A stretch of 64,000 nucleotides of DNA, from the NCBI GenBank assembly GCA_963760735.1, contig CAVXEB010000007.1, forward strand, positions 149,600 to 213,599, written 5' to 3'. Position 1 is the first letter of the stretch, and the number at the start of each line of letters is the position of its first letter. The notes under the pieces were generated by a model. That model did not search any database. It saw only the letters and a list, made by a program, of their open reading frames with translations, and was not told where the DNA came from. A program made the translations under genes and the position numbers. This DNA comes from an uncultured Chloroflexia bacterium. Its GTDB lineage: Bacteria > Chloroflexota > Limnocylindria > Limnocylindrales > CSP1-4. Below, in pieces: positions 32,895 through 46,884 of the stretch.

Positions 32895-32964
32895 GGCAGG
32901 CCCCGGAGTCTACCGGCCTTGACCATGCACCAAGGCGAGCCCATCTTGGGGCCATCCATTCCCT

Positions 32965-33678
32965 GTGGTCACGATCGAAGAGGGCTCGGGCTCGATGGAG
33001 CGTGACGATCCCGCCTACGCAGGCCAACGGGAATACTCACCGCAGTTCCTGAAGGTCTACGACCCCATCATCCTCGGCTTCTTCACCCGAGTCGTGTGGC
33101 GCTGCCCGACCATCCGACTGGTGGAGCCGTACCGGCGGTACATCGGCCACCGGCACCTGGACGTGGGTCCGGGGACGGGTTACTTCCTGGAACGGGCCGG
33201 CCTTCCTGACCACAGCCCGGTCACGCTCCTCGACCCGAATGCGCACGTCCTCGATCATGCATCTCGGCGCCTGCACCACCTCGACATCACGACCGTCGAA
33301 GCCGACGTCTGCAAGCCGCTTCCCGTCGATGGACCCTTCGACTCCGCCGCGCTGGCCGGCGTGCTCCACTGCCTTCCCGGACCGCTCTCGCGCAAGGCCG
33401 GGGCGGTGGCCAACGTCGCCGCGGTCCTCGCACCGACTGGCGTGCTGTTCGGCAGCTCGATCCTCGGCACCTCGGGGTCGCAGACGTGGCTGTCCCGGAG
33501 GGCGCTCGACGTCCTCAACCGACGCGGCACCTTCGACAACCTCGGGGACACGCAAGAGGGGCTCTCCGAGATCCTCCGGGCATCGTTCGATCAGGTCGAA
33601 CTCGAGACGATCGGCTCGATGGCGATCTTCGCGGCGACGAATCCGCGCACGAACTCGTCAACTATCGCGACACCATGA
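32965..33678 (+). CDS. class I SAM-dependent methyltransferase
   Basis: Motif I LDVGPGTGYF. Rossmann-fold methyltransferase length. Alternative start at 32995 (MERDDPAYAG). Confidence 0.7.
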   Translation: MVTIEEGSGSMERDDPAYAGQREYSPQFLKVYDPIILGFFTRVVWRCPTIRLVEPYRRYIGHRHLDVGPGTGYFLERAGLPDHSPVTLLDPNAHVLDHASRRLHHLDITTVEADVCKPLPVDGPFDSAALAGVLHCLPGPLSRKAGAVANVAAVLAPTGVLFGSSILGTSGSQTWLSRRALDVLNRRGTFDNLGDTQEGLSEILRASFDQVELETIGSMAIFAATNPRTNSSTIATP

Positions 33679-33692
33679 CTCTGCCTGATTCG

Positions 33693-33758
33693 CATGGTGA
33701 TCCACGCGTTGTCACATGGTGATCCACGCGTTGTCACATGGTGATCCACGCGTTGCAC
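33693..33758. repeat. 22-bp direct repeat catggtgatccacgcgttgtca, 2.9 tandem copies
   Basis: Read directly: catggtgatccacgcgttgtca | catggtgatccacgcgttgtca | catggtgatccacgcgttg(cacgc). Intergenic, immediately 5' of the tRNA-3'-half remnant at 33778. Confidence 0.85.
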
Positions 33759-33777
33759 GCACAGGCACCAGGGCTGG

Positions 33778-33813
33778 CTGAAAGTCGCGGGTTCGAACCC
33801 CGTCTCCAGCTCC
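33778..33813 (+). other. tRNA-Gly 3'-half remnant (att-like relic)
   Basis: ctgaaAgtcgcgggttcgaaccccgtctccAgctcc matches the T-arm and acceptor 3' strand of tRNA-Gly(CCC) at 31463 with 2 substitutions. No 5' half upstream. Confidence 0.6.
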
Positions 33814-33951
33814 TACATCCCTTTCTCGATCTCAAGGCGTCGAAGTGCGCGCTCACGACGACGTTCTGCTCGGAATCGTGGCCCTGGCGGTCCCGCTGCC
33901 GGAGGGCCGCCGACCGATCGCACGAGTCGATCGGGGCGAGTCCGGCGTGTG

Positions 33952-34632
33952 CTAGCCGTCGTCGTCTTCGAAATCCGGCCAGGCCGCGATGTCGACGCCG
34001 TGGTTCTCCGGCGAAGCGAGCGTCCACCAGTGGGGCGCGTGTGTCTCATCGGCCAGGCGTCCGCCCGCTGCGAGAGCCGCCGCGACTCTAGCATCCGCCT
34101 GATCTGCGGGCACGCTGACGTCGATGTGCGTACGGCCGCGGCCAGGCTTGGGAGGGTGCAGACGTTGGAACGAGACGTGTGGATTGCGTCTGTGTCGATC
34201 GACTACGTCCTCATCCGCGCCGAGGCTCTTGTACCCGAGTACGGCGGCCCAGAAAGGACCAACATCGCTGCCGGCATCCTGCGCCACGGCGATGCCTACT
34301 ACCTGGACCTGGGAGGGGTCTGGCTCGACCTGCAGCCTCCTGGCCTCGACCGAGATCCGGCGGGCCAGCTCAACATCGCGCTGGCTCAAGGCCCCGTACT
34401 CTCCGGAGGCTGTGCGGACAGTCACTCCCTCGGGCCGCAGGTCTACGTCGGGGAAGTGGCCAACAGCCTCGGCAACCTCGGCGATTGCCGCCACGAACCT
34501 GGCGCCATGCTCGAACGACCTGACGCGGAAGTAGGCGTGTGCGCCCGAGAACAGGACCCGCCAGTCCTCGACTCCGTCAGCGTCGTGCAGGGCTCGAGCC
34601 GTCGTTCTCTTCTCGTTCATCCGGGGAACCAT
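33952..34632 (-). CDS. fusion protein: pterin-4a-carbinolamine dehydratase (PCD/DCoH) domain + VOC/glyoxalase-like domain
   Basis: N-half EDWRVLFSG...FRVRSFEHGARFVAAIAEVAEAVGHFPDVDLRPEGVTVRTASGEYGALSQRDVELARRI fits the PCD signature. C-half ...WAAVLGYK...HIDVSVPADQADARVAAALAAGGRL is glyoxalase/VOC-like. Confidence 0.7.
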   Translation of the reverse strand: MVPRMNEKRTTARALHDADGVEDWRVLFSGAHAYFRVRSFEHGARFVAAIAEVAEAVGHFPDVDLRPEGVTVRTASGEYGALSQRDVELARRISVEARRLQVEPDPSQVQVVGIAVAQDAGSDVGPFWAAVLGYKSLGADEDVVDRHRRNPHVSFQRLHPPKPGRGRTHIDVSVPADQADARVAAALAAGGRLADETHAPHWWTLASPENHGVDIAAWPDFEDDDG

Positions 34633-34808
34633 AGCTCACATCGTGAGTGATTTCTGGCTACACCACCTCGCGGACCGCAGACGTTCACGACCCGCGGTAC
34701 GTAACTGGCGTTTGCCGACGGCCGACCTGTCGGCAAGGCCCGGCATGGCTCCGTCTGGCCCCCCGTTTGACCCCTTGACCCGGAACCCTCTGCAGCGAGG
34801 ACACGCTG

Positions 34809-35795
34809 CTTCCCAAGCTGAATGTCGCGGGTTCGAACCCCAGTCCTCCCGCTCCTCTTCCCTCGCCTGACGTTCGCCTGAGCGCGACCGCAGTCAGGGG
34901 AGCGGCTCGTAGACGAGCGTCCCCCCGTCCTCGAGGGTGATGGTCAGGGCGTTCGACGCAATCGCGTAGCTCGCGCTGTTCGTCAGGGCCAGCACGTACA
35001 GGTCGCCGTGGGACCCGTCACCGCAGGGCACGATCGCCGACGGCCCGGGCACGATCGACAGGCCGCCCGCCGCCGTCGCCGTCCACTGGCCGACGAGGGT
35101 GTTGCAGTCGGCGATCGCGCTGAACTGCCCGCCCGCCTTGAACGAGACGGTGTACTTCGAGCGCTCGGCGGCCGGGATGACGCCCTGATGCACGGGGTCG
35201 CGCGTGGTGATGCTGACGAGCTGCCAGTTCGTCCCGACCAGGTCGGCGCCCGGGCTCGGGGCGGGTGTCGGGGACGGCGTCGGCTTGGGCGTCGGGGTCG
35301 GTGTCGGGGTCGGGGTCGGGGTCGGTGTGGGCGTCGGTGACTTCGTGGGTGCCTCGGTCGGCTCCGTCGTCGGCGAGGCGGACGCGCTCGGCGGGGCCGA
35401 AGCGGTCACCGTGGGCGTCGGGCTCGCGGTCGGCGTGGCCGTCGGGGTCGGGCTCGGTGACGCGCTCGGTGACGGGCTCGCGCTGGCTGACGCGGAAGGC
35501 GACGAGCTGGCGCTGGGTGACGCCGAGGGACTCGGGACCACCGCCGTGCCGGAGCTCGCCACGAACGTGCCGGTCCCACCGTCGGCTGTCGTGAGCGTCA
35601 GCTGACCGCCGGCGATGACCCAGGTCGTCACATTCGCGAGCTCGTGGGCGAAGATGTCCCCGTACGACCCGTCCGGGCAGGCCACGAGCGTGCTTGGCCC
35701 GGGCGTGATCGTGATGCCGTCCTTGCCGCGCAGGCTGTAGGTCCCGGCCAGGGCATTGCAGTCCGCCCTGGCGCTGAACGTGCCGTCGGTGGCGA
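34809..35795. repeat. 985-bp direct repeat, copy A (100% identical to 45693-46679); begins with tRNA-Gly 3'-half remnant 34809-34855
   Basis: Identity starts exactly at cttcccaag (anticodon loop of tRNA-Gly CCC) and ends at ...tgccgtcggtggcga. ORFs in all frames translate identically in both copies. Offset 10884 bp. Confidence 0.9.
34894..35795 (-). pseudogene. 5'-truncated duplicate of the META-domain gene at 45778-46884
   Basis: C-terminal ~300 codons are identical to 45778-46677. The upstream part is replaced by unrelated sequence. It lacks the signal/TM segment and first META half, so it is probably non-functional. Confidence 0.7.
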
Positions 35796-35995
35796 GGCCC
35801 CGACCCCGCGATCCGCGGGTGGCGCAACCGCGCAACGTGTTCGCGACCCTTGACACGGTTGCACACGAGTGCATACACTCGTGTGCCGCAACGCGTGTTC
35901 GTTCCTGTAGCGGACCACGCGACGTCGTCGGCCCCGAGGCGTGGCGGTCAGTCGTTGCCGATGGACCGGTTGTCCATCGGCGCGAGGAGCGTCGG

Positions 35996-37501
35996 ATGAA
36001 GGTCCTGGCCGACCGCGAGGTCTGGCTCGTCACCGGCAGCCAAGCGCTCTACGGTGACGACGCCCTGCGCACCGTGGCCGAACACGCCATGGAGATCGGC
36101 AGTGCGCTCGACGCCGCCGATGTGATCCCGGTCCGGATCGTGACCAAACCCGTCGTCACGACCACGGAACAGATCCGGGGGGTCCTGCTCGAGGCGACCG
36201 CAGCGGCCCGTTGCATCGGTGTCATCGCCTGGATGCACACCTTCTCGCCCGCCCGGATGTGGATCCCGGGCCTGATCGCCCTGCAGAAGCCCCTCCTGCA
36301 CCTGCACACGCAGCACAACCGCGATCTCCCCTGGGCCGAGATCGACATGGATTTCATGAACCTCAACCAGTCGGCGCACGGCGATCGCGAGTTCGGCTAC
36401 ATCGAGACCCGCCTGCGATGCAGCCGGACCACCGTGGTCGGCCATTGGCGCGACCCCGAGGTCATCGATCGGATCGCCGCCTGGACCCGCGCCGCAAGCG
36501 GCGTCCACGAGCTCCAGCGTCTCCGACTCGCCCGCTTCGGCGACAACATGCGCCAGGTCGCGGTCACCGAAGGTGACAAGGTCGAGGCCCAGATCCGGCT
36601 CGGCGTCCGGGTCGACGGCTACGGCATCGGCGAGCTCGTCGCCGCGGTCAGGGCGGCTTCCGACGGGGACGTGGACCAGCTGGTCGACGAGTACGACGCG
36701 ACCTATCACCTGGCGCCAGCACTGCGCAGCGGCGGCGAACGTCGTTCGGCGCTCCGCGAGGCCGCCCGGATCGAGATCGGTCTTCGGGCGTTCCTCGAGA
36801 CCGGAGGCTTCGAAGCCTTCACGGACACCTTCGAGGATCTCGGCGACCTCGTTCAGCTCCCCGGACTCGCCGTCCAGCGCCTCATGGCCGACGGCTACGG
36901 CTTCGGTGCCGAGGGCGACTGGAAGACTGCCCTCCTCGTCCGGGCGATGAAGGTCATGGCGACCGGCCTGGCCGGCGGGACGTCGTTCATGGAGGACTAC
37001 ACCTACCACCTGGCGCCCGACGGACCGATGGTCCTGGGCGCCCATATGCTCGAGGTCTGCCCGAGCATCGCGGATGGGACCCCCTCGTGCGAGATCCATC
37101 CCCTGTCGATCGGCAATCGGTCGGACCCCGTCCGGCTCGTGTTCATGGCCCGGCCCGGGCCGGCCGTCGTCGTCGGCCTCCTCGATCTTGGTGATCGCTT
37201 CCGACTCGTCCTCAACGAGGTCGAGGTGGTCAGGCCTCCCGAGGACCTGCCGCGCCTGCCGGTCGCCCGCGCCCTCTGGAAGCCGCTTCCGGGGCTGAAA
37301 GGGGCGGCCGAGGCATGGCTGCTCGCGGGCGGCCCGCACCACACGAGCCTGAGCACCGCATTGAGCCGCACCCACCTCGAGGATTTCGCCGAGATGGTCG
37401 GCATCGAGCTCATCACCATCGGCCTGGGGACCGCGGCCACCGACATCAAGAAGGAGCTGCGCTGGAACCAGGCGTACTACCAGCTCGCCCGGGGGCCGTA
37501 G
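35996..37501 (+). CDS. araA: L-arabinose isomerase
   Basis: Start [20 protein letters not shown] (ATG 35996, GAGGAG 9 nt upstream). AraA-specific motifs [22 protein letters not shown], full ~500-aa length. Confidence 0.95.
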
Positions 37502-37687
37502 GTCACGGGTGAGCTGCGGTCGGCAGTGGACGTCGTCGTCCGAGTCGACGAGACCCTGCCGCCGAACGACGATCAGGACGCGCCGGCCTGCGACACGGGC
37601 GGCGCGCAGAAGGGAGGTTCTGCGACTGGAGGAGACCTCAGACCCGGCATGTCGGGCAGTGTGATCAGGTGCTTGGAGGTTTTCGGG

Positions 37688-38731
37688 ATGATGAGACATG
37701 GCGCGCGACGTGGTGGGCTGGCGATCCTCGTGACCGCCATGCTCGTCGTGAGCGCATGCAACGCTTCGTCAACGCCGTCACCCGCCGCGAGCGGCGGCAC
37801 GGGGACGCCCGCCAGCGCGCAGTTCTGCTCTGGGGTGACCCTGGTGTTCTTCCCTGGTGGCACGGCGGGCGGCGGTTTCGAGACGGTCGTCTACAACGGT
37901 GCGAAGGCCGCCGAGGCGGCATTCGGGCCCAAGATCACGTACCAGTGGTCCGATTGGGACCCGAACAAGATGATCACCCAGTTCTCCCAGGCGATGGCGA
38001 CCAAGCCCGACGGCATCGCCGTCATGGGTCACCCCGGTGATGCAGCCTTCGACCCGCTCATCAAGCAGGCCGAGGACCAGGGCATCTTCGTGACTGTCAT
38101 GAACACCGAGCTCTCCAACGCCCAGACGGCCTACGCGACCAAGGGCCTCGGCTACGTCGGTGCGGTCCTCCACGACGCGGGCTCGGCGCTCGCCAACGAG
38201 GCCATCGCGCGTGGCGGGCTCAAGTCCGGGGACCGTGCCTTCGTCTGGGGCCTCAAGGCCCAGGCCGGGCGCGGCGAGCGGACGCAGGGGATCATCGACG
38301 CGCTCGACAAGGCGGGCCTGAAAGTCGACTACCAGGAGATCGACGACGCGACCAACAAGGATCCGGCCAGCGGGACGCCGGTGTTCACGGGCTACGCCTC
38401 TTCGCATGCTGACGTCAAGGCCATGTTCATCGACCACGGCAACCTGACGTCGACCATCCCCACCTACATGAAGGCCGCCAACCTCGCCGCCGGCAGCGTG
38501 TACATGGCCGGCTTCGACGCCTCTGCCGCGACGGTGAAGGGGATCCAGGACGGCTACATCAGCCTGGTCATCGACCAGCAGCAGTATCTCCAGGGCTTCA
38601 TGGCCGTCCAGCAGCTGTGCCTGACCAAGAAGTACGGCTTCAGCGGCCTCTTCATCAACACCGGTGGCGGCTTCGTCGACAAGTCCAACATCGACGCGAT
38701 CGCCCCGCTGGTGCAACAGCAGATCCGGTAG
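37688..38731 (+). CDS. sugar ABC transporter substrate-binding lipoprotein (periplasmic-binding-protein type I, ribose/arabinose class)
   Basis: Start MMRHGARRGGLAILVTAMLVVSAC (lipobox). RbsB/AraF-like fold. The 5' part of the ORF-track ORF is non-coding. Confidence 0.85.
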   Translation: MMRHGARRGGLAILVTAMLVVSACNASSTPSPAASGGTGTPASAQFCSGVTLVFFPGGTAGGGFETVVYNGAKAAEAAFGPKITYQWSDWDPNKMITQFSQAMATKPDGIAVMGHPGDAAFDPLIKQAEDQGIFVTVMNTELSNAQTAYATKGLGYVGAVLHDAGSALANEAIARGGLKSGDRAFVWGLKAQAGRGERTQGIIDALDKAGLKVDYQEIDDATNKDPASGTPVFTGYASSHADVKAMFIDHGNLTSTIPTYMKAANLAAGSVYMAGFDASAATVKGIQDGYISLVIDQQQYLQGFMAVQQLCLTKKYGFSGLFINTGGGFVDKSNIDAIAPLVQQQIR

Positions 38732-39616
38732 ATGAAGGTCTCTCCGGCGGATGACCGCCAGATTGGCGGGCGCGACAGCGCCCGCCAATCGGCTCCCGCC
38801 TCTCCGCCTCGCCTCGAGCTGCGCGGGGTCTCCAAGTCGTTCGGCGGCGTTCACGTCCTCGAGCGCATCGACTTCCGACTCGGCTCGAGCGAAGTGGTGG
38901 GCCTGCTCGGCGACAATGGCGCCGGCAAGTCCACCCTCATCAAGATCATCACCGGCGTCCATCAGCCCGACCATGGCGAGATCTTCTTCGGCGGCGAGCC
39001 GGTCCAGGGCCTCACCGTCGAGAAGGCGCGCGGTCTGGGCGTCGAGACCGTCTACCAGGAGCGGGCGCTGGCAGATCAGCAGCCGCTCTGGCGCAACATC
39101 TTCATGGGGCGGCCGCTGACCTATTCGCTCGGCTTCCTGCGGGTCGGCCAGATGCGCCGCATCACCGAGGAGCTCATGGGCGAGTCCATGGGCTTCACCT
39201 CGGCGGCCCTGACACCGAACACGACCGTCCTGGGCCTGTCGGGCGGCGAGCGGCAGGGCCTGGCGATCGTCAGGGCCCTCCACTTCGAAGCCGACATCAT
39301 CGTGCTCGACGAGCCGACGATGGGCCTGTCGCTGAAGGAAACCGAGAAGCTCCTCGGCTTCGTCGAGGGTATCCGGGCGGCGGGCAAGTCGGCGATCTTC
39401 ATCGACCACAACATCTTCCACGTGTACTCGGTTGCCGATCGAATCGTGGTGCTGGATCGGGGACGGGTCGCGGGCGAGTTTCCGACGTCGCGCTACTCCC
39501 TCGAGGAGCTCATGGACATCATGCGCGAGGTTGCGTCGAGCGGGACGTACACCGAGGCCGAGCGCTACCGGCCGCCGAGCCAGCCGGCCTCCGAACCTGC
39601 GGGGGGGCTCGCATGA
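38732..39616 (+). CDS. sugar ABC transporter ATP-binding protein (single NBD)
   Basis: Walker A GDNGAGKSTL, signature LSGGERQGLAIVRAL, Walker B IIVLDEPT, H-loop. Confidence 0.85.
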   Translation: MKVSPADDRQIGGRDSARQSAPASPPRLELRGVSKSFGGVHVLERIDFRLGSSEVVGLLGDNGAGKSTLIKIITGVHQPDHGEIFFGGEPVQGLTVEKARGLGVETVYQERALADQQPLWRNIFMGRPLTYSLGFLRVGQMRRITEELMGESMGFTSAALTPNTTVLGLSGGERQGLAIVRALHFEADIIVLDEPTMGLSLKETEKLLGFVEGIRAAGKSAIFIDHNIFHVYSVADRIVVLDRGRVAGEFPTSRYSLEELMDIMREVASSGTYTEAERYRPPSQPASEPAGGLA

Positions 39617-40611
39617 GCGCGCGGCCCGCGGCGGTCGGAACCCAGCGGGGCGGCCGGAGCGCGTTCCTCGCCTCCTGGGCCTCGCAGATCGGCATCACGG
39701 TGGCGTTCCTCGTCCTGTGGATCGCCTTCGTCATCCTCGCGCCGAACACATTCCTGAAGGCGCCGATCTACCAGTCGTTCGCCCAGACGACGCCGTTCTT
39801 CGCGATCATGGCGATGCCCCTCACGATGGTGATCGTTGCCGGCGACATCGACCTGTCGTTCCCGGCGACGATGTCCCTCGGCATGGTCGGGTTCGTCGGC
39901 GTGTGGCAGGCCACGGGAAGCGTCGCGCTCGGGGTCGCCGCAGCCCTTGGCGTCGGCGTCCTGTGCGGCCTCTTCAACGGGTTCTTCGTCGTGTTCATCG
40001 GCATCCCGTCGCTGGTCGTGACGATCGGGACACAGTTCCTCTTCCGCGGCCTCGCGCTGGTTCTGGTCGGCGGCAAGCAGTACCCGCTGGTCACCACCCA
40101 GACATCGCCCGCGTACGAGGTCCTCGTTGGGAGGCTGTTCGGCATCCCGATGGAGTTCTACTGGCTCGTCCTCATCGCCGTCGCCACCTGGATCCTGCTC
40201 AACCGTCACCGGCTGGGCCAGAACGCGTACGTCACCGGCGACAACAGGCAGGCCGCCGCGCTCATGGGCATCCCCATCGGTCGGACGCGGATCGCGCTGT
40301 TCGTCCTCGTCGGGCTCGCTGCAACGTTCGCGGGCGTCCTCAACAGCCTCCAGGTCGTCAACTACTACCCGTCGATGGGTGACGGCTATCTCCTGCCGAC
40401 CCTCGCGGCGATCTTCGTCGGCGGCACGTCGGTGTTCGGTGGTCGCGGCAGCGTCTGGGGGACGGCCCTCGGCGCGTTCATGATCGGCGGGATCCAGGCC
40501 GGTCTCGTCGCCATCGGACTGAGCGACTACTACCCCAGCGTCGTGTACGGCGCCGTCATCCTGATCTCCGTCTCCATCCACGCCCTGCTGCGGCGCCGCT
40601 TCGAGTACTGA
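39613..40611 (+). CDS. sugar ABC transporter permease (RbsC/AraH-like)
   Basis: About 9-10 TM helices. Branched-chain/sugar permease family signature region. 4-nt overlaps with both neighbours. Confidence 0.85.
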   Translation: MSARPAAVGTQRGGRSAFLASWASQIGITVAFLVLWIAFVILAPNTFLKAPIYQSFAQTTPFFAIMAMPLTMVIVAGDIDLSFPATMSLGMVGFVGVWQATGSVALGVAAALGVGVLCGLFNGFFVVFIGIPSLVVTIGTQFLFRGLALVLVGGKQYPLVTTQTSPAYEVLVGRLFGIPMEFYWLVLIAVATWILLNRHRLGQNAYVTGDNRQAAALMGIPIGRTRIALFVLVGLAATFAGVLNSLQVVNYYPSMGDGYLLPTLAAIFVGGTSVFGGRGSVWGTALGAFMIGGIQAGLVAIGLSDYYPSVVYGAVILISVSIHALLRRRFEY

Positions 40612-40712
40612 TGGACGGCACGAGGGCGACCGCGGGCGCGCACGACGACCATGCCGGCGGCACCCGCCGCGGCCGGTCCCGGCCGCCCGGCCGAGGGAGC
40701 CGGCCCGCGACG

Positions 40713-41894
40713 ATGAAGGACATCGCGAACGCGACCGGGGTTTCGCGGAGCACGGTGTCACGCATCCTCAACAACACCCCGCTCACCGTCCCGATCGCCC
40801 AGGAGACCCGGGAGCGCGTCCTGGCCGCGGCTCGCGACCTCGAGTACCGCCCGAACCCCCTCGCGCGGGCGCTGCGGGGGGCGCCCACGATGCTTCTCGG
40901 GGCGATCGTCCGCGACATCACCGACCCCTTCTTCGCCGGCGCGATCGAGGCCGTCTCGCGCGCCGCCCGGGCCCGCGGCTACAACATCGTGCTCGGCCTC
41001 GCTCACGCCCGGGCGACGGAGGCGCACGAGCTGGCGACCGTGCTCGAGGCCCGCCATTGCGACGGGATCCTCCTCCTCGGCGACATGGGCGATCAGCCCC
41101 GCCTCCTGGCCGACCTCCGTGGCTCGCACGTCCCGGTGGTCGCGATGTGGCAGGGCACCAGGCTCGACCTCATTCCAGGCGTCCAGGTCGACAACCACCT
41201 GGGCATCAGGATCGCCATCGAGCACCTCGCCGGTCTGGGTCATCGGCGGATCGCCTTCATCGGCGGCCGCCCGCTCGGCGACATCCGCGAGCGGCAGGCC
41301 GCCTACGCCGAGGCCGTGTCGGAGATCCTGGGCGAGATCCCGGCCGACTACCTCCAGCACGTCGCCAACACTCCCGAGGGTGGGGCGGCGGCGCTGGATG
41401 CGCTCCTGCGCGTCTCGCCCAGGCCGACCGCGATCGTCGCCTCGACGGACGTCCTGGCGATCGGCGTCCTGCGCGGCGCGCTCCTTCGTGGCGTGAAGAT
41501 CCCCGGCGAGCTCTCGGTCGTCGGGTTCGACGACATCCCGATGGCGAAGTCCACCGTGCCCGGCCTGACCACGATCCGGATGCCGATCGCGGCCATGGCC
41601 ACGGAGGCGATCGCCATGGCCGTGGGCTTGTCCGACGCCGACGGGGATGGGGATCGGGACGGGCGAGCACCGGGGGCCGGCCCCGCCGGTACATCATCGG
41701 CAGCGCCGCGGACCGCGGCGGCTGCTCGAGGCGACGACGCAACCACGCAGCCGCAGGGTCGGTCGACGATCCGGGTCTTTCCGCCATCGCTTGTCGTCCG
41801 CGGCTCGTCGGCAGCGCCTCCTCCGGGTGAGCGTGAGCCGTCCGAAGGCCCACGATCGGAGCCCGAGCAGGCGTCGCGTGAGGGAGCGCCGTGA
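40713..41894 (+). CDS. LacI family transcriptional regulator (likely arabinose-island repressor)
   Basis: HTH MKDIANATGVSRSTVSRILNN plus sugar-binding core. Unusual ~90-aa low-complexity C-terminal tail. Alternative upstream start at 40611. Stop overlaps the araD GTG (GTGA). Confidence 0.85.
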   Translation: MKDIANATGVSRSTVSRILNNTPLTVPIAQETRERVLAAARDLEYRPNPLARALRGAPTMLLGAIVRDITDPFFAGAIEAVSRAARARGYNIVLGLAHARATEAHELATVLEARHCDGILLLGDMGDQPRLLADLRGSHVPVVAMWQGTRLDLIPGVQVDNHLGIRIAIEHLAGLGHRRIAFIGGRPLGDIRERQAAYAEAVSEILGEIPADYLQHVANTPEGGAAALDALLRVSPRPTAIVASTDVLAIGVLRGALLRGVKIPGELSVVGFDDIPMAKSTVPGLTTIRMPIAAMATEAIAMAVGLSDADGDGDRDGRAPGAGPAGTSSAAPRTAAAARGDDATTQPQGRSTIRVFPPSLVVRGSSAAPPPGEREPSEGPRSEPEQASREGAP

Positions 41895-42604
41895 GCCTCG
41901 ACGACCTCCGGGAGCAGGTCTGCTCCGCCAACACTGCCCTGGTCCGCGCCGGCCTGGTGACCCTGTCCTTCGGCAATGCCAGTGGCGTCGATCGAGGGGC
42001 CGGCGTGATGGTCATCAAGCCCAGCGGCGTGCCGTGTGACGCCCTGCAGCCGGCCGACCTGGTCGCCGTCGATCTGGCCTCGGGCGCCGCGATCGCCGGC
42101 ACCTTTCGCCCGTCCTCCGATACCCCGACCCATCTCGCCCTCTACCGGCGCTACCCGGAGATCGGGGGGGTCGTCCATACCCACTCACCGTGGGCCTCGG
42201 CATGGGCCCAGGCCGGCCGGGCGATCGCCTGCTTCGGGACGACGCACGCCGACCACTTCCACGGACCCGTACCCGTGACACGGGCGCTCACCCCGGTCGA
42301 GCTCGGGGAGACCTACGAGGCGGATACCGGCGCCGTCATCATCGAGACCCTGGACGCGCTCGAGCTCGCACCCCTCGAGATGCCGGCGGTCCTGGTCCGC
42401 TCGCACGGGCCGTTCACCTGGGGGATCGACGCCACCGAGGCGGTCGCAAATGCCATCGCGCTCGAGGCGGTAGCGGCGATGGCCCAGCGAACACTGGCGA
42501 TCGACGATGTCGCGGACGCGATCGACGAGGCGCTCCTCGAGCGCCACTTCCGACGAAAGCATGGGCCCACCGCCTACTACGGCCAGGTGGGCCGCCATGG
42601 CTGA
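41891..42604 (+). CDS. araD: L-ribulose-5-phosphate 4-epimerase
   Basis: Class II aldolase/adducin fold with AraD motifs ([25 protein letters not shown], metal-binding His cluster). Sits between lacI and the ribulokinase gene. Confidence 0.9.
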
Positions 42605-42701
42605 CCCAAGGGGCGGGGCAACGCCACCGGGATGCGGCACCGTGCGGCAGGCCTCCGGGATCGTCGGGGGCGGCGGTGGCCGGCTCGGGCGGAGGAGGAT
42701 C

Positions 42702-44306
42702 GTGAAGCAGCAGGACGATCACGCGGCCGAGCTGATCAGGGCCGGTGACGCGATCCTCGGGATCGAGCTCGGCTCGACGCGGATCAAGGCATCGCTGATC
42801 GCGCCCGACACGACGCCTCTCGCCTCCGGCTCACACTCCTGGGCAAGCCGGCTCGACGAAGGTGTCTGGACCTACGACATGGCGGACGTCTGGAGCGGCC
42901 TGGCGGCGAGCTACGCGTCGCTCGTCGAGGACGTCCGCGACCGCTATTCCCTTCAGCTGACGACCGTGGCAGCCATGGGCGTGAGCGGGATGATGCACGG
43001 GTACCTGCCGCTGGACGTCGATGGAAGGCTCTCGGTGCCATTCCGGACCTGGCGGAACAACATCACCGGCGAGGCGTGCGCCGCCTTGACCCCGCTCCTC
43101 GGCTTCGCCGTGCCGCAGCGCTGGAGCATCGCCCACCTGTACCAGTCGATCCTGGAGGGGCAGCCACATGTCAGCCGGATCGACCGGCTCACCACGCTGG
43201 CGGGGTACGTGCACCTGACGCTCACCGGCAACCACGCGGTGGGTGTCGGCGAGGCCTCGGGCATGTTCCCCATCGACCCGCGGAGCGGTGACTGGGACAC
43301 CGCGCGGATGGCGACGTTCGACGCGCTCATCGCGCCGCAGGGGTTGGGTTGGGCCCTCCGCGACATCCTTCCCACCGTCCTCGCCGCCGGCCGCCCAGCC
43401 GGACAGCTGTCGGCAACCGGTGCGCGGCTGCTCGACCAGTCCGGGGGGCTCCCCGCCGGGATCCCCCTCTGTCCTCCCGAGGGCGACGCCGGGACGGGCA
43501 TGGTCGCGACCAACGCGGTGCGGCCGCGCTCGGGGAACGTGTCGGCGGGCACGTCGGTGTTCGCCATGATCGTTCTGGAGAAGAGCCTGGGCGGCATCCA
43601 CGATGGGATCGACATCGTGGTCACGCCCGACGGCAAGCCCGTGGCCATGGCCCACTCGAACAACGGGTCCGGCGACCTCGACGCATGGATCGCGCTCTTC
43701 GGCCAGGTGGCACGGGCACTCGGGATGGACGCCCGTCCGGAGGACCTCTACGACCGCCTCCTCCCGCTGGCGGTGGACGGTGACCCGGACGCAGGCGGCC
43801 TCCTCGCCATCAACTACGTGTCGGGTGAGCACGTGACGGGCTTCACGGAAGGCCGGCCCCTGTTCGCGCGGAACCAGGACAGCAGGTTCACCCTCGAGAA
43901 CTTCGTGCGGGCCATGTTCTTCGCTTCGCTCTGCGCCCTGCGGACGGGCGTGGACATCCTGACCCGGCAGGAGGGCGTCGTCATCGAGGAGATCCGGGGC
44001 CACGGTGGGTTCTTCCAGGGCGGCGACACCGGGCAACGGATGATGGCGGCCGCACTCGACGTTCCGGTCTCCATTCCTGCGACGGCCGCCGAAGGTGGCG
44101 CCTGGGGCATGGCCGTGCTCGCCGCCTACATGCTCCGTCGCGACGCCGGGCAGTCGCTACCCGACTTCCTCGACGAACGGATCGCCGGCACCATCGGCCC
44201 GCCGGTCAGACCCGAGCCGCGTGACGTGCAGGGCTTCGCGGAATTCTTCGCTCGCCACACGCGGGGGCTTGCCATCGAGCGAGCGGCCGTGGACACGCTG
44301 CGTTGA
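42702..44306 (+). CDS. araB: ribulokinase (FGGY carbohydrate kinase)
   Basis: FGGY N-terminal motif [15 protein letters not shown]. Full FGGY length (534 aa) from GTG 42702, preceded by GGAGGAGGA. The ORF-track ATG-less 5' extension overlaps araD and is unlikely. Confidence 0.85.
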
Positions 44307-44451
44307 GCTGCGTTCCTGCCGGTTCATCGCCACCGATGGATGGTCATCGGGATCATCCGACGGCCGTCGCCGCACGTCCCTGGTGCCCAGCTGCCCGGTC
44401 CCGAGCCGTTGCCGCAGTCGCTGTCCGACAGTAGAATCCGGTTCCTCCCGA

Positions 44452-44527
44452 GCGGGAGTAACTCAGTTGGCAGAGTGTCAGCTTTCCAAGCAGAATGTCG
44501 CGGGTTCGAATCCCGTCTCCCGCTCCA
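44452..44527 (+). tRNA. tRNA-Gly (anticodon TCC); one A.A mismatch in anticodon stem
   Basis: Same scaffold as tRNA-Gly(CCC) (identical acceptor, D-arm and T-arm apart from AAT in the T-loop) but with anticodon loop TTTCCAA. Anticodon stem TCAGC/GCAGA has an A-A mismatch at 29-41. Confidence 0.8.
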
Positions 44528-44634
44528 CTTCCCATCGGAACTCCGGAAGACACCCTACTTGGTGTCGTCTCTTGTCTTCTGGGCTCTTCGGACTCGTGCT
44601 CGCCGGCCGCCGCCGACCTGCGGCATCGGCGCCT

Positions 44635-45513
44635 TCAGTGCAGCCAGGCGAGCATCTCGGCCCAGCGCGTCAGCGGCGCAAGGTGTCCATCGCCAGGGAA
44701 GATCGCGAACGTCGCTCCCGGGATGGTGGCAGCGAGGTAGTCCGCCTCGTCGCGGTCGGCCGGGGCACCATCTCCCACCCAGACCGCAGCGTCGCACCTG
44801 ATCTCGGCGAGAGAGAAACCCCAAGGCTGGATGAACGCCATCGTGTCGGCGACCGCGCCGGCGGAGCCCTGCCGCGCCGCGTCGCGTGCCCACTCGATCA
44901 TGGCCTCGCGCACGTCCGAACGCGCGAAGAGCCGCTGGTCCGGACCCGGAGGCTCATCCGAGTTCTCGAACAAGCCGTCGTAGACGGACGCGGGATTGTC
45001 GGCGAAGCCCTTCCATTGATTGACCACGCCATCGAGTGCCCCCTGCGGATCGACGGGCAGCAGGCGGCTCAGCCTGCGAGTCTCATCGTCGAATGAGCCT
45101 GGGACCTCAGTCATCGGCCCGACGCTGCCCGACACGCCGACCGACGTGACGATGGCGGGAAGACTGAAGGCGCACGCGAGGGCATAGGGACCGCCGCCGG
45201 ACCATCCCATCAGAGGGCAAGGCCGCAGGTCGAGCTGCGCGTGGAGCTCAGCGAAGTCATCCGCCCAGCTCAGGAGCGAACGGCCCGGCTTCGGATCCGA
45301 CCAGCCGTAGCCCGGTCGGTCGACGGTGATAAGGCGGACGCCAGCGGCCGCGGTGGCATCCGTGTCCGGGCACTGGAGCCGGGTGGCGGGCATGCCGTGG
45401 AACATGACCACCGGACGTCCTCGCAGGTCGCCCCACTCGGCGTAGGCGAGCGACCTGCCGTCGCGGAGCGTGACCCGGCCTTCGGACCGAGGAGTCGCGG
45501 AGACACTGGCCAT
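44635..45513 (-). CDS. alpha/beta-hydrolase fold protein
   Basis: HGMPATR oxyanion region, nucleophile elbow GWSGGG (GxSxG), C-terminal His. Confidence 0.8.
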   Translation of the reverse strand: MASVSATPRSEGRVTLRDGRSLAYAEWGDLRGRPVVMFHGMPATRLQCPDTDATAAAGVRLITVDRPGYGWSDPKPGRSLLSWADDFAELHAQLDLRPCPLMGWSGGGPYALACAFSLPAIVTSVGVSGSVGPMTEVPGSFDDETRRLSRLLPVDPQGALDGVVNQWKGFADNPASVYDGLFENSDEPPGPDQRLFARSDVREAMIEWARDAARQGSAGAVADTMAFIQPWGFSLAEIRCDAAVWVGDGAPADRDEADYLAATIPGATFAIFPGDGHLAPLTRWAEMLAWLH

Positions 45514-45692
45514 CCCAACCTCCGCGCGCGGACGACAACCATCCGCAGTATTGCCCGGTCCATCGCGACCATAGCGGCGAGCGCCTCGTTGTCGGCCACC
45601 GGTGTCGAGACTTGGAGGCGGTCACGACACCATGACAATCTGTGATTCGCTCGACCCTCCATGCTCGTGCTGCTGCGCTCACGAGCTCAGGA

Positions 45693-46679
45693 CTTCCCAA
45701 GCTGAATGTCGCGGGTTCGAACCCCAGTCCTCCCGCTCCTCTTCCCTCGCCTGACGTTCGCCTGAGCGCGACCGCAGTCAGGGGAGCGGCTCGTAGACGA
45801 GCGTCCCCCCGTCCTCGAGGGTGATGGTCAGGGCGTTCGACGCAATCGCGTAGCTCGCGCTGTTCGTCAGGGCCAGCACGTACAGGTCGCCGTGGGACCC
45901 GTCACCGCAGGGCACGATCGCCGACGGCCCGGGCACGATCGACAGGCCGCCCGCCGCCGTCGCCGTCCACTGGCCGACGAGGGTGTTGCAGTCGGCGATC
46001 GCGCTGAACTGCCCGCCCGCCTTGAACGAGACGGTGTACTTCGAGCGCTCGGCGGCCGGGATGACGCCCTGATGCACGGGGTCGCGCGTGGTGATGCTGA
46101 CGAGCTGCCAGTTCGTCCCGACCAGGTCGGCGCCCGGGCTCGGGGCGGGTGTCGGGGACGGCGTCGGCTTGGGCGTCGGGGTCGGTGTCGGGGTCGGGGT
46201 CGGGGTCGGTGTGGGCGTCGGTGACTTCGTGGGTGCCTCGGTCGGCTCCGTCGTCGGCGAGGCGGACGCGCTCGGCGGGGCCGAAGCGGTCACCGTGGGC
46301 GTCGGGCTCGCGGTCGGCGTGGCCGTCGGGGTCGGGCTCGGTGACGCGCTCGGTGACGGGCTCGCGCTGGCTGACGCGGAAGGCGACGAGCTGGCGCTGG
46401 GTGACGCCGAGGGACTCGGGACCACCGCCGTGCCGGAGCTCGCCACGAACGTGCCGGTCCCACCGTCGGCTGTCGTGAGCGTCAGCTGACCGCCGGCGAT
46501 GACCCAGGTCGTCACATTCGCGAGCTCGTGGGCGAAGATGTCCCCGTACGACCCGTCCGGGCAGGCCACGAGCGTGCTTGGCCCGGGCGTGATCGTGATG
46601 CCGTCCTTGCCGCGCAGGCTGTAGGTCCCGGCCAGGGCATTGCAGTCCGCCCTGGCGCTGAACGTGCCGTCGGTGGCGA
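45693..46679. repeat. 985-bp direct repeat, copy B (intact copy); begins with tRNA-Gly 3'-half remnant 45693-45739
   Basis: See copy A. Here the repeat is continuous with the intact 5' end of the META-domain gene. Confidence 0.9.
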
Positions 46680-46884
46680 ACTTGATCGTGTAGCGCGTCT
46701 GCTCTTCGGCCGGGAATACCCCCTGGAACGCCGGGGTCTGGCCGGTGATCGCGGCCAGCTGCCAGGTCGAGCCGGTCAGGGTGCCGGTGTCCGGGCCGCG
46801 GCCCAGGATGGCGAAGAGGGCGAGCCCGCCGATGACGACGGCGGCGACGACGCCGATGACGACGACCACGGGGCGTTGCTGCAT
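45778..46884 (-). CDS. membrane-anchored protein with two HslJ-like META (DUF306) domains and Pro/Thr-rich linker
   Basis: Start MQQRPVVVVIGVVAAVVIGGLALFAILG (N-terminal TM anchor; ATG 46884 with GGAGAGGGA upstream). Two META-like halves (TWQLAAI..., ...NWQLVSI...DCNTLVGQW...). Paralogous to the 9029-10486 protein. Confidence 0.75.
   Translation of the reverse strand: MQQRPVVVVIGVVAAVVIGGLALFAILGRGPDTGTLTGSTWQLAAITGQTPAFQGVFPAEEQTRYTIKFATDGTFSARADCNALAGTYSLRGKDGITITPGPSTLVACPDGSYGDIFAHELANVTTWVIAGGQLTLTTADGGTGTFVASSGTAVVPSPSASPSASSSPSASASASPSPSASPSPTPTATPTASPTPTVTASAPPSASASPTTEPTEAPTKSPTPTPTPTPTPTPTPTPKPTPSPTPAPSPGADLVGTNWQLVSITTRDPVHQGVIPAAERSKYTVSFKAGGQFSAIADCNTLVGQWTATAAGGLSIVPGPSAIVPCGDGSHGDLYVLALTNSASYAIASNALTITLEDGGTLVYEPLP

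What the first reader, a model, noticed from the sequence alone, without database searches (positions are those of the whole stretch)
34809..46679. 985-bp perfectly identical direct repeats flank the 9.9-kb arabinose island; one copy truncates a META-domain gene
34809-35795 and 45693-46679 are identical nucleotide for nucleotide. Every frame translates identically in both copies. Copy B is continuous with an intact gene, 45778-46884, which has an N-terminal TM anchor. Copy A stops abruptly at 35795, where identity ends at ...tgccgtcggtggcga. That creates a 5'-truncated pseudogene abutting araA. Both copies start at the same base of the tRNA anticodon loop. This is the signature of a Campbell-type single-crossover insertion of a circular element that carried a homologous copy of [tRNA 3' half + gene 3' part], or of a very recent segmental duplication. 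Perfect identity implies recency or gene conversion. The island should excise or delete by homologous recombination at appreciable frequency. This structure could also confuse short-read assembly.
Basis: seen in the sequence. Interest (0 to 1): 0.75.

Follow-up and report, generated by a model that had tools for sequence, protein, structure and literature searches.

The report
Duplicated tRNA flank brackets arabinose island
A perfect 987-bp repeat brackets an arabinose-utilisation operon because two differently "occupied" versions of one tRNA-Gly integration site have been joined head to tail; this is a real but ordinary kind of genomic-island architecture, with one curious by-product, a hybrid tRNA whose anticodon has changed.

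Summary
34809-35795 and 45693-46679 are a perfect 987-bp direct repeat (R), 10,884 bp apart, with unrelated flanks. R consists of the displaced, decayed 3' half of a tRNA-Gly(CCC) gene, a 38-bp spacer and the last 902 nt of a META/HslJ-like gene. In the closest relative found (L013) the intact tRNA lies directly next to that gene. So the 14.2 kb from 31493 to 45692 is inserted DNA: three small islets without any integrase (I1, I2, I3) plus a self-contained L-arabinose operon. Each R copy abuts a different islet (I2 or I3) at the same anticodon-stem/loop nucleotide, so both left edges look like attR junctions. The only illegitimate joint is 35795|35796, 200 bp upstream of araA. The "tRNA-Gly(TCC)" inside the island is an attL-type hybrid of the resident 5' half and a 3' half carried by I3. 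Contig L022 shows I3 with that 3' half alone and anticodon CCC, so the window copy later acquired C34T. Best reading: a recent Campbell-type or unequal recombination through R joined two versions of the same tRNA locus. The exact route cannot be proven without reads. This is a known kind of structure, of low-to-moderate interest.

The parts
31418..31462 (+). Leader/promoter-like region (S0) of the resident tRNA-Gly(CCC): GTTGGCGCA ... TACACT ... TCCCGAG
   Evidence: With the tRNA it is 92.8% identical to the leader+tRNA in relative L013 (L013 3757-3881 = window 31545-31422); alignment.
31463..31538 (+). Intact tRNA-Gly(CCC). It is the attL end of the array; its 3' part from position 31 (31493) was presumably supplied by islet I1.
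   Evidence: ARAGORN; Rfam tRNA 67.6 bits; sequence identical to the L013 tRNA.
31539..33776 (.). Islet I1: 394-aa ORF with no family match (31710-32894, minus), methyltransferase (32965-33678, plus; phrog_2132) and three tandem 22-bp repeats (33690-33755) next to frag1. No integrase.
   Evidence: GC3 is 0.82-0.84 against 0.87-0.94 for neighbouring host genes.
33777..33813 (+). frag1: displaced tRNA-Gly 3' fragment (GCTGAAAGTCGCGGGTTCGAACCCCGTCTCCAGCTCC), 95% identical to the resident 3' half
33814..34808 (.). Islet I2: one gene (33952-34632, minus), a pterin-4a-carbinolamine dehydratase / glyoxalase-like fusion. Its right end abuts R copy A.
   Evidence: junction sequence. GC3 is 0.77.
34809..35795 (+). 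R copy A (987 bp): frag2 (34809-34855, decayed tRNA 3' half from position 31), spacer (34856-34893), and the 3' 902 nt of the META gene (34894-35795, minus strand), which lacks the first 68 codons including the membrane anchor
35795..35796 (.). The only non-homologous (illegitimate) joint of the structure: ...GTCGGTGGCGA | GGCCCCGACCCC...
   Evidence: Identity to copy B ends here. The adjoining 65 nt show no direct or inverted similarity to the other boundaries and no transposon-like terminal repeats.
35850..35886 (+). araA promoter-like site (TTGACA-18-TACACT) overlapped by a perfect 11-4-11 palindrome (GCACACGAGTG CATA CACTCGTGTGC), a likely operator for the LacI-family regulator
35996..37501 (+). 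araA, L-arabinose isomerase
   Evidence: NCBIfam NF002795, 787 bits against a cutoff of 622; Pfam AraA_N/central/C.
37526..40611 (+). Sugar ABC transporter: binding protein (37526-38731), ATPase (38732-39616), permease (39613-40611)
   Evidence: Pfam Peripla_BP_4, ABC_tran, BPD_transp_2.
40611..41894 (+). LacI-family regulator (the true start is probably near 40700)
   Evidence: Pfam LacI + Peripla_BP_3; nucleotide homology to relatives starts at 40706.
41891..42604 (+). araD-like class II aldolase/epimerase
   Evidence: Pfam Aldolase_II, E=1e-43.
42702..44306 (+). araB-like FGGY pentulose kinase
   Evidence: Pfam FGGY_N/C; 81-83% identical homologues in many soil metagenome contigs.
44409..44437 (+). 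Promoter-like site (TTGCCG-17-TAGAAT) in front of tRNA'. This leader has the same layout as S0 but is only about 56% identical to it beyond the 7 nt next to the tRNA (identity counted by eye from the alignment).
44452..44527 (+). tRNA' = tRNA-Gly(TCC), an attL-type hybrid. 44445-44484 (7-nt leader + positions 1-33) is identical to the resident tRNA-Gly(CCC). The 3' half is the type carried by islet I3. The anticodon-stem pair 29-41 is broken (A.A). The anticodon loop is TTTCCAA, i.e. the CCC-type loop with C34T.
   Evidence: (65 bits).
44528..45692 (.). Islet I3: terminator-like hairpin (44549-44566) and an alpha/beta hydrolase gene (44635-45513, minus). Its right end abuts R copy B.
   Evidence: L022 matches window 45393-44477 at 92% and ends at the anticodon loop.
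45693..46679 (+). R copy B (987 bp): frag2 (45693-45739), spacer (45740-45777), and the 3' 902 nt of the intact META gene
   Evidence: L013 2495-3809 matches window 47007-45693 at 85.5%, ending exactly at the start of R.
45778..46884 (-). Intact META/HslJ-like gene: 368 aa, N-terminal membrane anchor, two META domains joined by a Pro/Thr/Ser-rich linker

Best explanation
SHOWN. The segment 31463-46884 is a tandem array of integrase-less island remnants built in a tRNA-Gly(CCC) gene that ancestrally lay tail to tail with the META/HslJ-like gene. R is the tRNA 3' half displaced by integration, since decayed, plus the adjoining 940 bp of host flank. R occurs twice because two differently occupied versions of this one locus sit head to tail. 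V1 is leader S0 - tRNA - I1 - frag1 - I2 - R, cut off inside META at 35795. V2 is ara operon - diverged leader - tRNA' - I3 - R - rest of META. The left edge of each R copy is an attR-type junction at the anticodon stem/loop, with I2 in one case and I3 in the other. The single illegitimate joint is 35795|35796.

INFERRED route. In a sibling chromosome carrying V2, an illegitimate join formed between a point 200 bp upstream of araA and a point inside META. This produced a 10,884-bp circular or sister-strand intermediate (R + ara operon + tRNA' + I3). That intermediate recombined through the 987 bp of R with a chromosome carrying V1. This is a Campbell-type addition, formally like the partial diploid left by a specialised-transducing phage.

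The duplication is recent, because the copies are identical right up to both edges. RecA recombination between the copies can delete the ara-tRNA'-I3 unit, restoring V1 with an intact META gene, or amplify it. After the locus was doubled, the hybrid tRNA' acquired C34T, turning a redundant tRNA-Gly(CCC) copy into a tRNA-Gly(UCC)-type gene.
For: R is exact, 987 bp, with abrupt ends. Empty site: in L013 (META 92% aa, 85% nt) an intact tRNA-Gly(CCC) lies 36 bp after the META stop. The L013 homology splits between window 47007-45693 and 31545-31422. Five same-strand copies of the tRNA-Gly T-arm lie within 14 kb, against about 0.05 expected by chance; relatives have one each. The left flanks of the two R copies are unrelated (30% identity). 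tRNA' is chimeric. Forty nucleotides are identical to the resident gene up to position 33. Its 3' half is identical to the L001 type. The covarying pair 29-41 (A-T in the window type, T-A in the L001 type) is A.A in tRNA'. L022 carries I3 (92% nt) preceded by only that 3' half, starting at the anticodon loop and with anticodon CCC. So I3 brings its own 3' half, and tRNA' is host 5' half plus I3 3' half. The exact tRNA' sequence is absent from 241 M JGI records, whereas the resident tRNA is identical in JGI contig L013. The joint 35795|35796 has no homology and no terminal repeats. It leaves a complete promoter and operator in front of araA. Tandem arrays at tRNA genes, and integration into either restored att core, are documented (PMC7192596 and PMC4383910). 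They are also documented in Chloroflexota at ssrA (PMC2764846).
Against: No integrase, excisionase, replication or transfer gene was found in any sizeable ORF of the window. Every site-specific step is therefore inferred from scars only. No contig with V1 alone, V2 alone, or the joint 35795|35796 was found. The leader of tRNA' is only about 56% identical to S0 (my count from the alignment), while R is 100% identical. A simple 'conspecific sibling donor' does not explain this. I2 and I3 abut the same decayed fragment, with two shared 1-nt insertions, so one of the two junctions must have been remade at the att core after the decay. That is an extra, unobserved step. The ara genes are compositionally indistinguishable from the host. 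In relatives the ara genes and the hydrolase gene lie in unrelated contexts, so no donor arrangement has been seen. The window probably comes from a metagenome-assembled contig, and no reads could be checked.
Confidence: 0.5

Rival explanations
1. Single-lineage route. An element carrying the ara operon, tRNA' and I3 at its right end was integrated at the frag2 core. An illegitimate exchange between sister chromosomes (upstream of araA x inside META) duplicated [U+R] in tandem. The left element copy was then excised precisely at the att cores, leaving I2-R-U-R. No donor cell is needed.
For: It explains why both R copies share the same two decay insertions and are 100% identical. It explains why I2 abuts R exactly at the core, and why the remaining copy has lost its integrase end (no integrase). 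Integration into either restored core of an array is documented (PMC7192596).
Against: It requires tRNA', a full gene with a 5' half identical to the host's, to be internal cargo. L022 shows that the I3 module carries only the 3' half. It also needs an active integrase/excisionase that is nowhere in the window, and it takes as many steps as the Campbell route.
Confidence: 0.15
2. Permuted circle. A 13-kb circle (diverged leader - tRNA - I1 - frag1 - I2 - R' - ara operon) from a sibling chromosome integrated into a resident S0-tRNA::I3-R-META locus. Recombination occurred inside the tRNA (integrase-mediated, at the anticodon loop) rather than inside R.
For: It gives the observed order and explains the chimeric tRNA' as a reassortment of halves at the anticodon loop. 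The crossover position matches the start of R and of the L022 fragment.
Against: With 987 bp of perfect homology available, recombination through about 10 nt of core needs an integrase for which there is no trace. It is otherwise indistinguishable by sequence from the preferred route.
Confidence: 0.1
3. Old duplication plus gene conversion. The tRNA-Gly(CCC)-META locus was duplicated long ago, which would account for the diverged leader of tRNA'. I1/I2 and I3 then integrated independently into the two copies, and R has been kept identical by gene conversion.
For: The leader of tRNA' is homologous in layout to S0 but only about 56% identical. The two copies carry different islets.
Against: Identity is perfect up to the very last base at both ends of R. 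Conversion tracts normally leave diverged edges. The two shared 1-nt insertions in a non-functional fragment would have to be copied as well. Copy A has no homology at all beyond 35795.
Confidence: 0.1
4. Assembly artefact or mixed population. Only one R exists per chromosome, and the assembler threaded a second haplotype, or a free 10.9-kb circle, into the contig.
For: The source is a 793,593-bp contig that is not from a named isolate. The relatives are long-read soil MAGs assembled with metaFlye and one round of Medaka. Perfect identity of repeats is what consensus polishing would tend to produce.
Against: The joint R|araA-upstream (35795|35796) has no sequence overlap that could mislead an assembler, so it must exist in reads. 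Then R-U-R exists either in a chromosome or as a circle. A circle holding only sugar-catabolic genes, a tRNA and a hydrolase has no replication function. A 987-bp repeat is easily spanned by long reads. The same contig preserves three perfect 948-bp tandem repeats.
Confidence: 0.1

Closest known systems
Islander-type genomic islands in tRNA genes and their tandem arrays (Hudson et al. 2015, PMC4383910; Mageeney et al. 2020, PMC7192596)
   Same: There is an intact tRNA at one end and same-strand displaced 3' fragments marking successive island ends. The crossover is at the anticodon stem/loop, and a relative has an empty site. Arrays grow by integration into either restored core.
   Different: None of the units has an integrase, which those pipelines require in every unit. 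The units are 1-2.3 kb scars with one or two genes. The array contains a second full-length hybrid tRNA with its own leader, and 940 bp of host flank is duplicated along with the att fragment.
Partial diploids ('heterogenotes') left by specialised-transducing lambda gal/bio phages, i.e. Campbell addition through host homology (textbook knowledge, not tested here)
   Same: A segment consisting of element end, hybrid att and adjacent host flank is present twice in direct orientation around the added DNA. One joint is illegitimate. The structure can be lost by homologous recombination.
   Different: There are no phage or packaging genes, and the cargo is a catabolic operon. The vehicle (circle, sister strand or transformed DNA) is unknown.
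ssrA/tRNA direct-repeat arrays in the high-plasticity regions of Dehalococcoides, also Chloroflexota (McMurdie et al. 2009, PMC2764846)
   Same: The 3' fragment of a small RNA gene is repeated many times downstream of the intact gene, with strain-specific metabolic genes between the repeats, in the same phylum.
   Different: There the repeats are about 20 bp and integrase-containing blocks are present. Here a 987-bp repeat includes a flanking protein-coding gene.
Isoacceptor anticodon shift of a duplicated tRNA gene (known from comparative tRNA studies; recalled from memory, not tested here)
   Same: A redundant copy of a tRNA-Gly(CCC)-type gene carries a single C34T change that gives anticodon UCC.
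   Different: The copy is a hybrid made by island integration and has a mismatched 29-41 pair. Its expression and function are unknown.

Membership tests
tRNA-targeting integrative genetic element (Islander definition) | Intact target tRNA gene at one end | tested here: met
   tRNA-Gly(CCC) at 31463-31538 and the hybrid tRNA' at 44452-44527.
tRNA-targeting integrative genetic element (Islander definition) | Displaced tRNA 3' fragment in direct orientation at the other end | tested here: met
   frag1 at 33777-33813; frag2 at 34809-34855 and 45693-45739.
tRNA-targeting integrative genetic element (Islander definition) | Tyrosine (or serine) integrase gene inside the element | tested here: not met
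   No recombinase family hit in any ORF of I1, I2, I3 or the ara segment, nor in the other large ORFs of the window (Pfam, NCBIfam, PHROGs, PADLOC).
tRNA-targeting integrative genetic element (Islander definition) | Uninterrupted site in a related genome | tested here: met
   L013 has an intact tRNA-Gly(CCC) 36 bp from the META stop, and its homology to the window splits at the start of R. This rests on a single relative at about 85% nt identity.
tRNA-targeting integrative genetic element (Islander definition) | The same module is found with its own att half elsewhere | tested here: met
   L022 has I3 (92% nt) preceded by the tRNA 3' half only, next to unrelated DNA with PIN-domain genes. This was shown for I3 only; it was not tested for I1 or I2.
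Campbell-type addition / specialised-transduction-like partial duplication | Direct repeats of host flank plus att bracketing the added DNA, with one non-homologous joint | tested here: met
   R x2; the joint 35795|35796 has no homology.
Campbell-type addition / specialised-transduction-like partial duplication | A circular or phage-borne intermediate carrying R+U | not testable with these tools
   Needs reads, PCR or related strains. No phage genes are present.
Composite transposon / IS-mediated insertion | Transposase gene, terminal inverted repeats, short target-site duplication | tested here: not met
   There are no inverted repeats of 30 nt or more in 30-52 kb. There is no similarity between the ends of the unique segment, and no transposase hits.
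Simple tandem segmental duplication | The two copies are adjacent, and the sequence after copy A equals the sequence after copy B | tested here: not met
   The copies are separated by 9,897 bp of unique DNA, and the sequences right of the two copies are 14-27% identical.
L-arabinose catabolic operon (araA/araB/araD with transporter and regulator) | Isomerase, ribulokinase-type FGGY kinase, class II aldolase-fold epimerase, uptake system, repressor with operator | tested here: met
   The araA equivalog scores 787 bits. FGGY, Aldolase_II, Peripla_BP_4/ABC_tran/BPD_transp_2 and LacI domains are present, as are a promoter-like site and a palindrome. Substrate specificity of the kinase, epimerase and transporter is inferred from context only.

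The most novel reading that the evidence does not exclude
Island integration followed by doubling of the locus created a spare, hybrid tRNA-Gly(CCC) gene (host 5' half plus island-borne 3' half, with a mismatched 29-41 pair). A single C34T change has recruited it as a tRNA-Gly(UCC). If it is now the cell's working, or only, GGA decoder, it would make the arabinose segment undeletable and so fix an otherwise unstable 987-bp-repeat structure. That would be a tRNA isoacceptor born from an attL scar.
Probability: 0.25. Interest if true: 0.5.

Novelty: new member of a known kind. Interest (0 to 1): 0.3.

Why it matters
It documents, in an uncultured high-GC soil lineage whose relatives are labelled Chloroflexia or Limnocylindria MAGs, how a complete arabinose regulon can become embedded in a tRNA-linked island array. 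It also shows that very long 'att' repeats can arise when host flank is co-duplicated. Practically, the 987-bp repeat predicts spontaneous loss or amplification of the ara-tRNA'-hydrolase unit. It is also a trap for short-read assembly and for island-finding software, which would see a tRNA fragment without an integrase. The hybrid tRNA with a changed anticodon is a small, testable example of tRNA gene birth from an integration scar.

Tried and rejected
1. Exact-protein look-ups of window proteins (META, SnoaL-like, hydrolase, and the 100%-identical AraB record P0104) returned nothing, so the source contig and conspecific contigs could not be retrieved.

2. Two metagenome-wide exact scans gave 0 hits: one for the decayed frag2 (GTTCGAACCCCAGTCCTCCCGCTCC), one for the hybrid tRNA' stem-loop. 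This shows that no conspecific is in that collection. It gave no variant alleles.

3. The genome-contig scan with META returned only relatives at 65-74% aa identity with no shared gene order.

4. Contexts of the closest AraB homologues (81-83%) and hydrolase homologues (86-87%) show no tRNA and no shared neighbours, so no donor arrangement was found.

5. Searches for an integrase were negative: all ORFs of 60 aa or more in the islets, and the large ORFs of the whole window, against Pfam, NCBIfam, PHROGs and PADLOC. The 394-aa ORF next to the tRNA is not a recombinase.

6. The transposon/IS hypothesis was rejected: no terminal inverted repeats and no similarity between the ends of the unique segment.

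7. A foreign composition for the ara segment is not supported. Its tetranucleotide correlation to the rest of the window is 0.968, against a null of 0.985 +/- 0.014, and its GC3 equals the host's.

8. Possible decayed copies of the tRNA leader occur inside I2 (33873-33892) and at the I3 right end (45581-45608). They stood out in local alignment but not in global alignment (p about 0.1-0.27), so they are treated as unproven.

9. Scans of viral contigs for the two tRNA 3' halves found only a phage tRNA array (L019) with an ordinary tRNA-Gly(UCC) sharing the 3' half. No element with a matching attP was found.

Full report
OBSERVATION

Base-by-base extension at an offset of 10,884 bp gives one uninterrupted identical stretch: 34809-35795 equals 45693-46679, 987 bp with no mismatch (also families D2/D10). 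Outside both ends identity drops at once to 14-33%, the random level in this 70% GC sequence. The finding's coordinates are right; its title says 985 bp, which is two short. No other long dispersed repeat exists in the window, apart from tandem repeats inside one giant ORF.

WHAT THE REPEAT (R) IS MADE OF

R starts with CTTCCCAAGCTGAATGTCGCGGGTTCGAACCCC. This is tRNA-Gly(CCC) from position 31, the last base of the 5' strand of the anticodon stem, through the anticodon CCC and the T arm. Relative to the functional gene, the fragment (frag2, 47 nt) has two 1-nt insertions in the T-stem/acceptor part, so it cannot function. Both copies share these insertions. A 38-nt spacer follows. Then come, on the minus strand, the last 902 nt of a 368-codon gene with an N-terminal hydrophobic anchor and two META domains joined by a Pro/Thr/Ser-rich linker. 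Copy B continues into the intact gene (45778-46884). Copy A stops after codon 68 counted from the 5' end, at 35795. That point is 200 bp upstream of the araA start codon at 35996.

ANCESTRAL STATE

The closest relative found for the META gene is a 4.9-kb JGI metagenome contig, L013 (92% aa, about 85% nt). In L013 an intact tRNA-Gly(CCC), identical in sequence to the window's, lies 36 bp after the META stop codon in convergent orientation. The homology of L013 to the window is split. L013 2495-3809 matches 47007-45693 and ends exactly at the first base of R copy B. L013 3757-3881 matches 31545-31422, which is the intact tRNA at 31463-31538 plus about 40 nt of its leader. Relative to this arrangement, everything from tRNA position 31 (31493) to 45692 is inserted into the tRNA gene. 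That is 14,200 bp, not just the 9.9 kb between the repeats. More distant relatives (65-74% aa; L001-L005) share no gene order around META. The empty-site evidence therefore rests on one contig plus the window's own frag2-spacer-META geometry.

ANATOMY OF THE INSERT

Five same-strand copies of the tRNA-Gly T-arm occur within 14 kb, where about 0.05 are expected by chance. From left to right the insert contains:

- The intact tRNA-Gly(CCC), 31463-31538.
- Islet I1 (31539-33776): a 394-aa ORF with no family match, and a methyltransferase that matches phrog_2132 at E=7e-35. Three tandem 22-bp repeats sit directly left of the next fragment.
- frag1 (33777-33813).
- Islet I2 (33814-34808): one gene, a pterin-4a-carbinolamine dehydratase / glyoxalase-like fusion.
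- R copy A.
- The arabinose cluster (35796-44444). It has a promoter-like TTGACA-18-TACACT overlapped by a perfect 11-4-11 palindrome. Then follow araA (NCBIfam equivalog, 787 bits), a binding protein, an ABC ATPase, a permease, a LacI-family regulator, an araD-like aldolase-fold gene and an araB-like FGGY kinase.
- A second full-length tRNA, called tRNA-Gly(TCC) by ARAGORN (44452-44527; 65 bits in Rfam). It has its own promoter-like site and a terminator-like hairpin.
- Islet I3 (44528-45692), with one alpha/beta-hydrolase gene on the minus strand.
- R copy B.

No integrase, excisionase, transposase, replication or transfer gene was detected in any of these units. None was found in the other sizeable ORFs of the window either. 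Islet genes have slightly lower GC3 (0.77-0.84) than their neighbours (0.87-0.94). The ara genes are indistinguishable from the host.

THE INTERNAL tRNA IS A HYBRID OF THE SAME LOCUS

Positions 44445-44484 (7 nt of leader plus tRNA positions 1-33) are identical to the resident tRNA-Gly(CCC). All differences lie 3' of that point. The 3' half is identical to that of the tRNA-Gly(CCC) of relative L001, which has anticodon stem TCTGC/GCAGA. The resident type has TCAGC/GCTGA. tRNA' combines TCAGC with GCAGA, which leaves an A.A mismatch at pair 29-41. That is the signature of a crossover between the two types inside the anticodon stem-loop, which is where R begins.

Independent support comes from L022, a JGI contig found through the hydrolase. 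It matches window 45393-44477 at 92% nt. The match covers the hydrolase, the hairpin and only the 3' half of tRNA'. It begins at the anticodon loop (TTCCCAAGCAGAATG...) with anticodon CCC and a slightly decayed T-loop. Upstream of that point L022 has unrelated DNA carrying PIN-domain genes. So islet I3 travels with its own tRNA-Gly 3' half, as integrative elements do. The window's tRNA' is then the corresponding attL: a host 5' half joined to the I3 3' half. Its TCC anticodon is a later C34T change in a CCC-type loop (TTCCCAA to TTTCCAA). The exact tRNA' sequence is absent from the 241 M JGI records, although that collection does contain the resident tRNA sequence unchanged (L013). In other relatives the hydrolase gene lies in unrelated, tRNA-free contexts, with homology limited to the gene plus or minus about 60 bp.

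CONSEQUENCE FOR THE REPEAT

The region contains two complete versions of one tRNA-Gly(CCC)-META locus.

- V1: leader S0 - tRNA - I1 - frag1 - I2 - R, cut off at 35795.
- V2: (ara operon) - leader' - tRNA' - I3 - R - rest of META.

The two R copies have unrelated left neighbours, the right ends of I2 and I3 (30% identity). Both neighbours join R at the same nucleotide, the integrase crossover position. It is two attR-type junctions. The only joint that needs an illegitimate event is 35795|35796. Its flanks show no homology to any other boundary and no transposon-like inverted repeats.

MECHANISM (INFERRED)

The topology A-R-U-R-C, with an intact gene at copy B, is what a single crossover through R gives. 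One partner is a chromosome carrying V1. The other is a 10,884-bp circular or sister-strand intermediate R+U, itself formed in a V2 chromosome by an illegitimate join between a site upstream of araA and a site inside META. Formally this is the partial diploid left by a specialised-transducing phage. I rate this route at about 0.5.

Alternatives that fit the sequence equally well in topology:

- A tandem duplication of U+R by illegitimate sister exchange, followed by precise excision of the left element copy (0.15).
- Integration of the permuted 13-kb circle through the tRNA core (0.1).
- An old duplication of the locus kept identical in R by gene conversion (0.1). This is disfavoured because identity is perfect up to the last base at both edges, and because the decay insertions are shared.
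- An assembly artefact or free circle (0.1). This is disfavoured because the joint 35795|35796 has no overlap that could mislead an assembler, and because U encodes nothing that could maintain a replicon. Even so, the sequence very probably comes from a metagenome contig of 793,593 bp. Its relatives are long-read soil MAGs assembled with metaFlye and Medaka, and I could not inspect reads.

Two things remain unexplained (notebook):

- The leader of tRNA' keeps the layout of S0 (GTTGsCGCA ... TAnAnT ... TCCCGAG) but is only about 56% identical to it, by my count from the alignment. S0 together with the tRNA is 92.8% identical to L013.
- I2 and I3 abut the same decayed fragment. One of the two junctions must therefore have been remade at the att core after the decay, presumably by an integrase that is no longer present.

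TIMING AND PREDICTED BEHAVIOUR

There are zero differences in 987 bp, including at the edges, against two indels in the 45-nt displaced tRNA part. The doubling of R is therefore much younger than the displacement of the fragment. Homologous recombination between the copies would delete 10,884 bp (ara operon, tRNA', I3 and one R) and leave V1 with an intact META gene. Unequal sister exchange would amplify the same unit. The arabinose regulon is self-contained (promoter, operator, regulator, transporter, three enzymes), so it should function wherever it lands. If tRNA' has become the working GGA decoder, loss would be counter-selected. This cannot be judged from 64 kb.

COMPARISON WITH WHAT IS KNOWN

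Islands bounded by a tRNA gene and its displaced 3' fragment, and tandem arrays formed by integration into either restored core, are the standard picture (PMC4383910; PMC7192596). Arrays of ssrA and tRNA fragments interspersed with strain-specific metabolic genes are described in Dehalococcoides, also Chloroflexota (PMC2764846).

This locus meets the structural criteria: an intact tRNA, same-strand fragments, an empty site in a relative, and a module seen elsewhere with its own att half. It fails the integrase criterion for every unit. It is best called a decayed array rather than a set of active elements.

The extra features are 940 bp of host flank co-duplicated with the att fragment, a second hybrid tRNA with a leader, and a changed anticodon. 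These are variations on known themes (Campbell addition, specialised-transduction-like capture, isoacceptor anticodon shift; the last three are recalled from general knowledge and were not tested here).

VERDICT

It is a new member of a known kind, with interest about 0.3. The most novel reading not excluded is that an attL scar has been recruited as a tRNA-Gly(UCC) gene that now stabilises the island (probability about 0.25).

Noticed in passing
window 44452-44527 (with L022 856-911): The tRNA called Gly(TCC) has an A.A mismatch at anticodon-stem pair 29-41 and a CCC-type loop with C34T. The homologous fragment in L022 still reads CCC. This is a possible isoacceptor shift in a duplicated hybrid tRNA.
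   Followed up: partly
window 33690-33755: Three tandem 22-bp units (ATGGTGATCCACGCGTTGTCAC-like) lie about 20 bp left of the displaced fragment frag1. They occur nowhere else in the window and could be arm-type recombinase-binding sites of the decayed islet I1.
   Followed up: partly
window 10605-19010: A single 2,801-codon ORF is built of tandem repeats: three perfect 948-bp copies (12459-15300) made of units of about 315 bp, followed by a series of 255-bp units. It is probably a giant repetitive surface protein. It also shows that the assembly preserves long perfect repeats.
   Followed up: no
window 34894-36033 (minus strand): The truncated META copy stays open upstream of the joint. A 379-codon ORF runs antisense through the araA promoter/operator into the 5' end of araA, giving a chimeric N-terminus in place of the membrane anchor. 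It is probably not expressed, but annotators would call it a gene.
   Followed up: no
window 44405-44451 versus 31418-31462: The leader of the hybrid tRNA keeps the same promoter-like layout as the resident leader but is only about 56% identical (my count from the alignment). The downstream side (R) is 100% identical. None of the simple models explains this.
   Followed up: partly
L016 9939-10887; L017 3179-4148; L018 43-1012: The hydrolase gene of islet I3 occurs at 86-87% nt identity in three other contigs in entirely different neighbourhoods. Homology is confined to the gene plus or minus about 60 bp, so single-gene-sized modules seem to move around in this lineage.
   Followed up: partly
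L022 1074-3789: Next to the I3-type tRNA fragment, this contig carries two PIN-domain genes and a hydrolase/guanylate-cyclase fusion. It is likely another islet of a tandem array at the same tRNA in a different population.
   Followed up: no
window 40611-44306 versus L015, L020: The gene order here is regulator-araD-araB. The closest AraB relatives (81-83% aa) have regulator-araB-araD, and none has araA or a transporter adjacent. The window's compact seven-gene ara cluster appears to be a lineage-specific assembly.
   Followed up: partly
window 19044-20096 (minus); 20266-21366 and 25572-26672: There is a second LacI-family regulator, about 74% nt identical to the ara regulator over parts of the gene and in inverted orientation. 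There is also a pair of Fe-ADH-like paralogues (77-84% nt over short stretches) around another sugar ABC transporter cluster.
   Followed up: no
window 8939-10486, and about 4250-4575: The same 64 kb holds further META-domain genes or paralogous stretches (Pfam META E=1e-38 at 8939-10486; a 72% match to part of R near 4252-4294). The family is expanded locally.
   Followed up: no
window 33873-33892 and 45581-45608: Short stretches inside I2 and at the right end of I3 resemble parts of the resident tRNA leader. They scored above nearly all shuffles in local alignment but were not significant in global alignment. They may be relics of older copies of the locus, or chance.
   Followed up: yes
L019 (IMG/VR UViG_3300015607_002357) 735-6106: A viral contig with 18 tRNA genes and a tmRNA-like gene in 6 kb turned up because its tRNA-Gly(UCC) shares the 3' half of tRNA'. 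It is unrelated to the finding.
   Followed up: no
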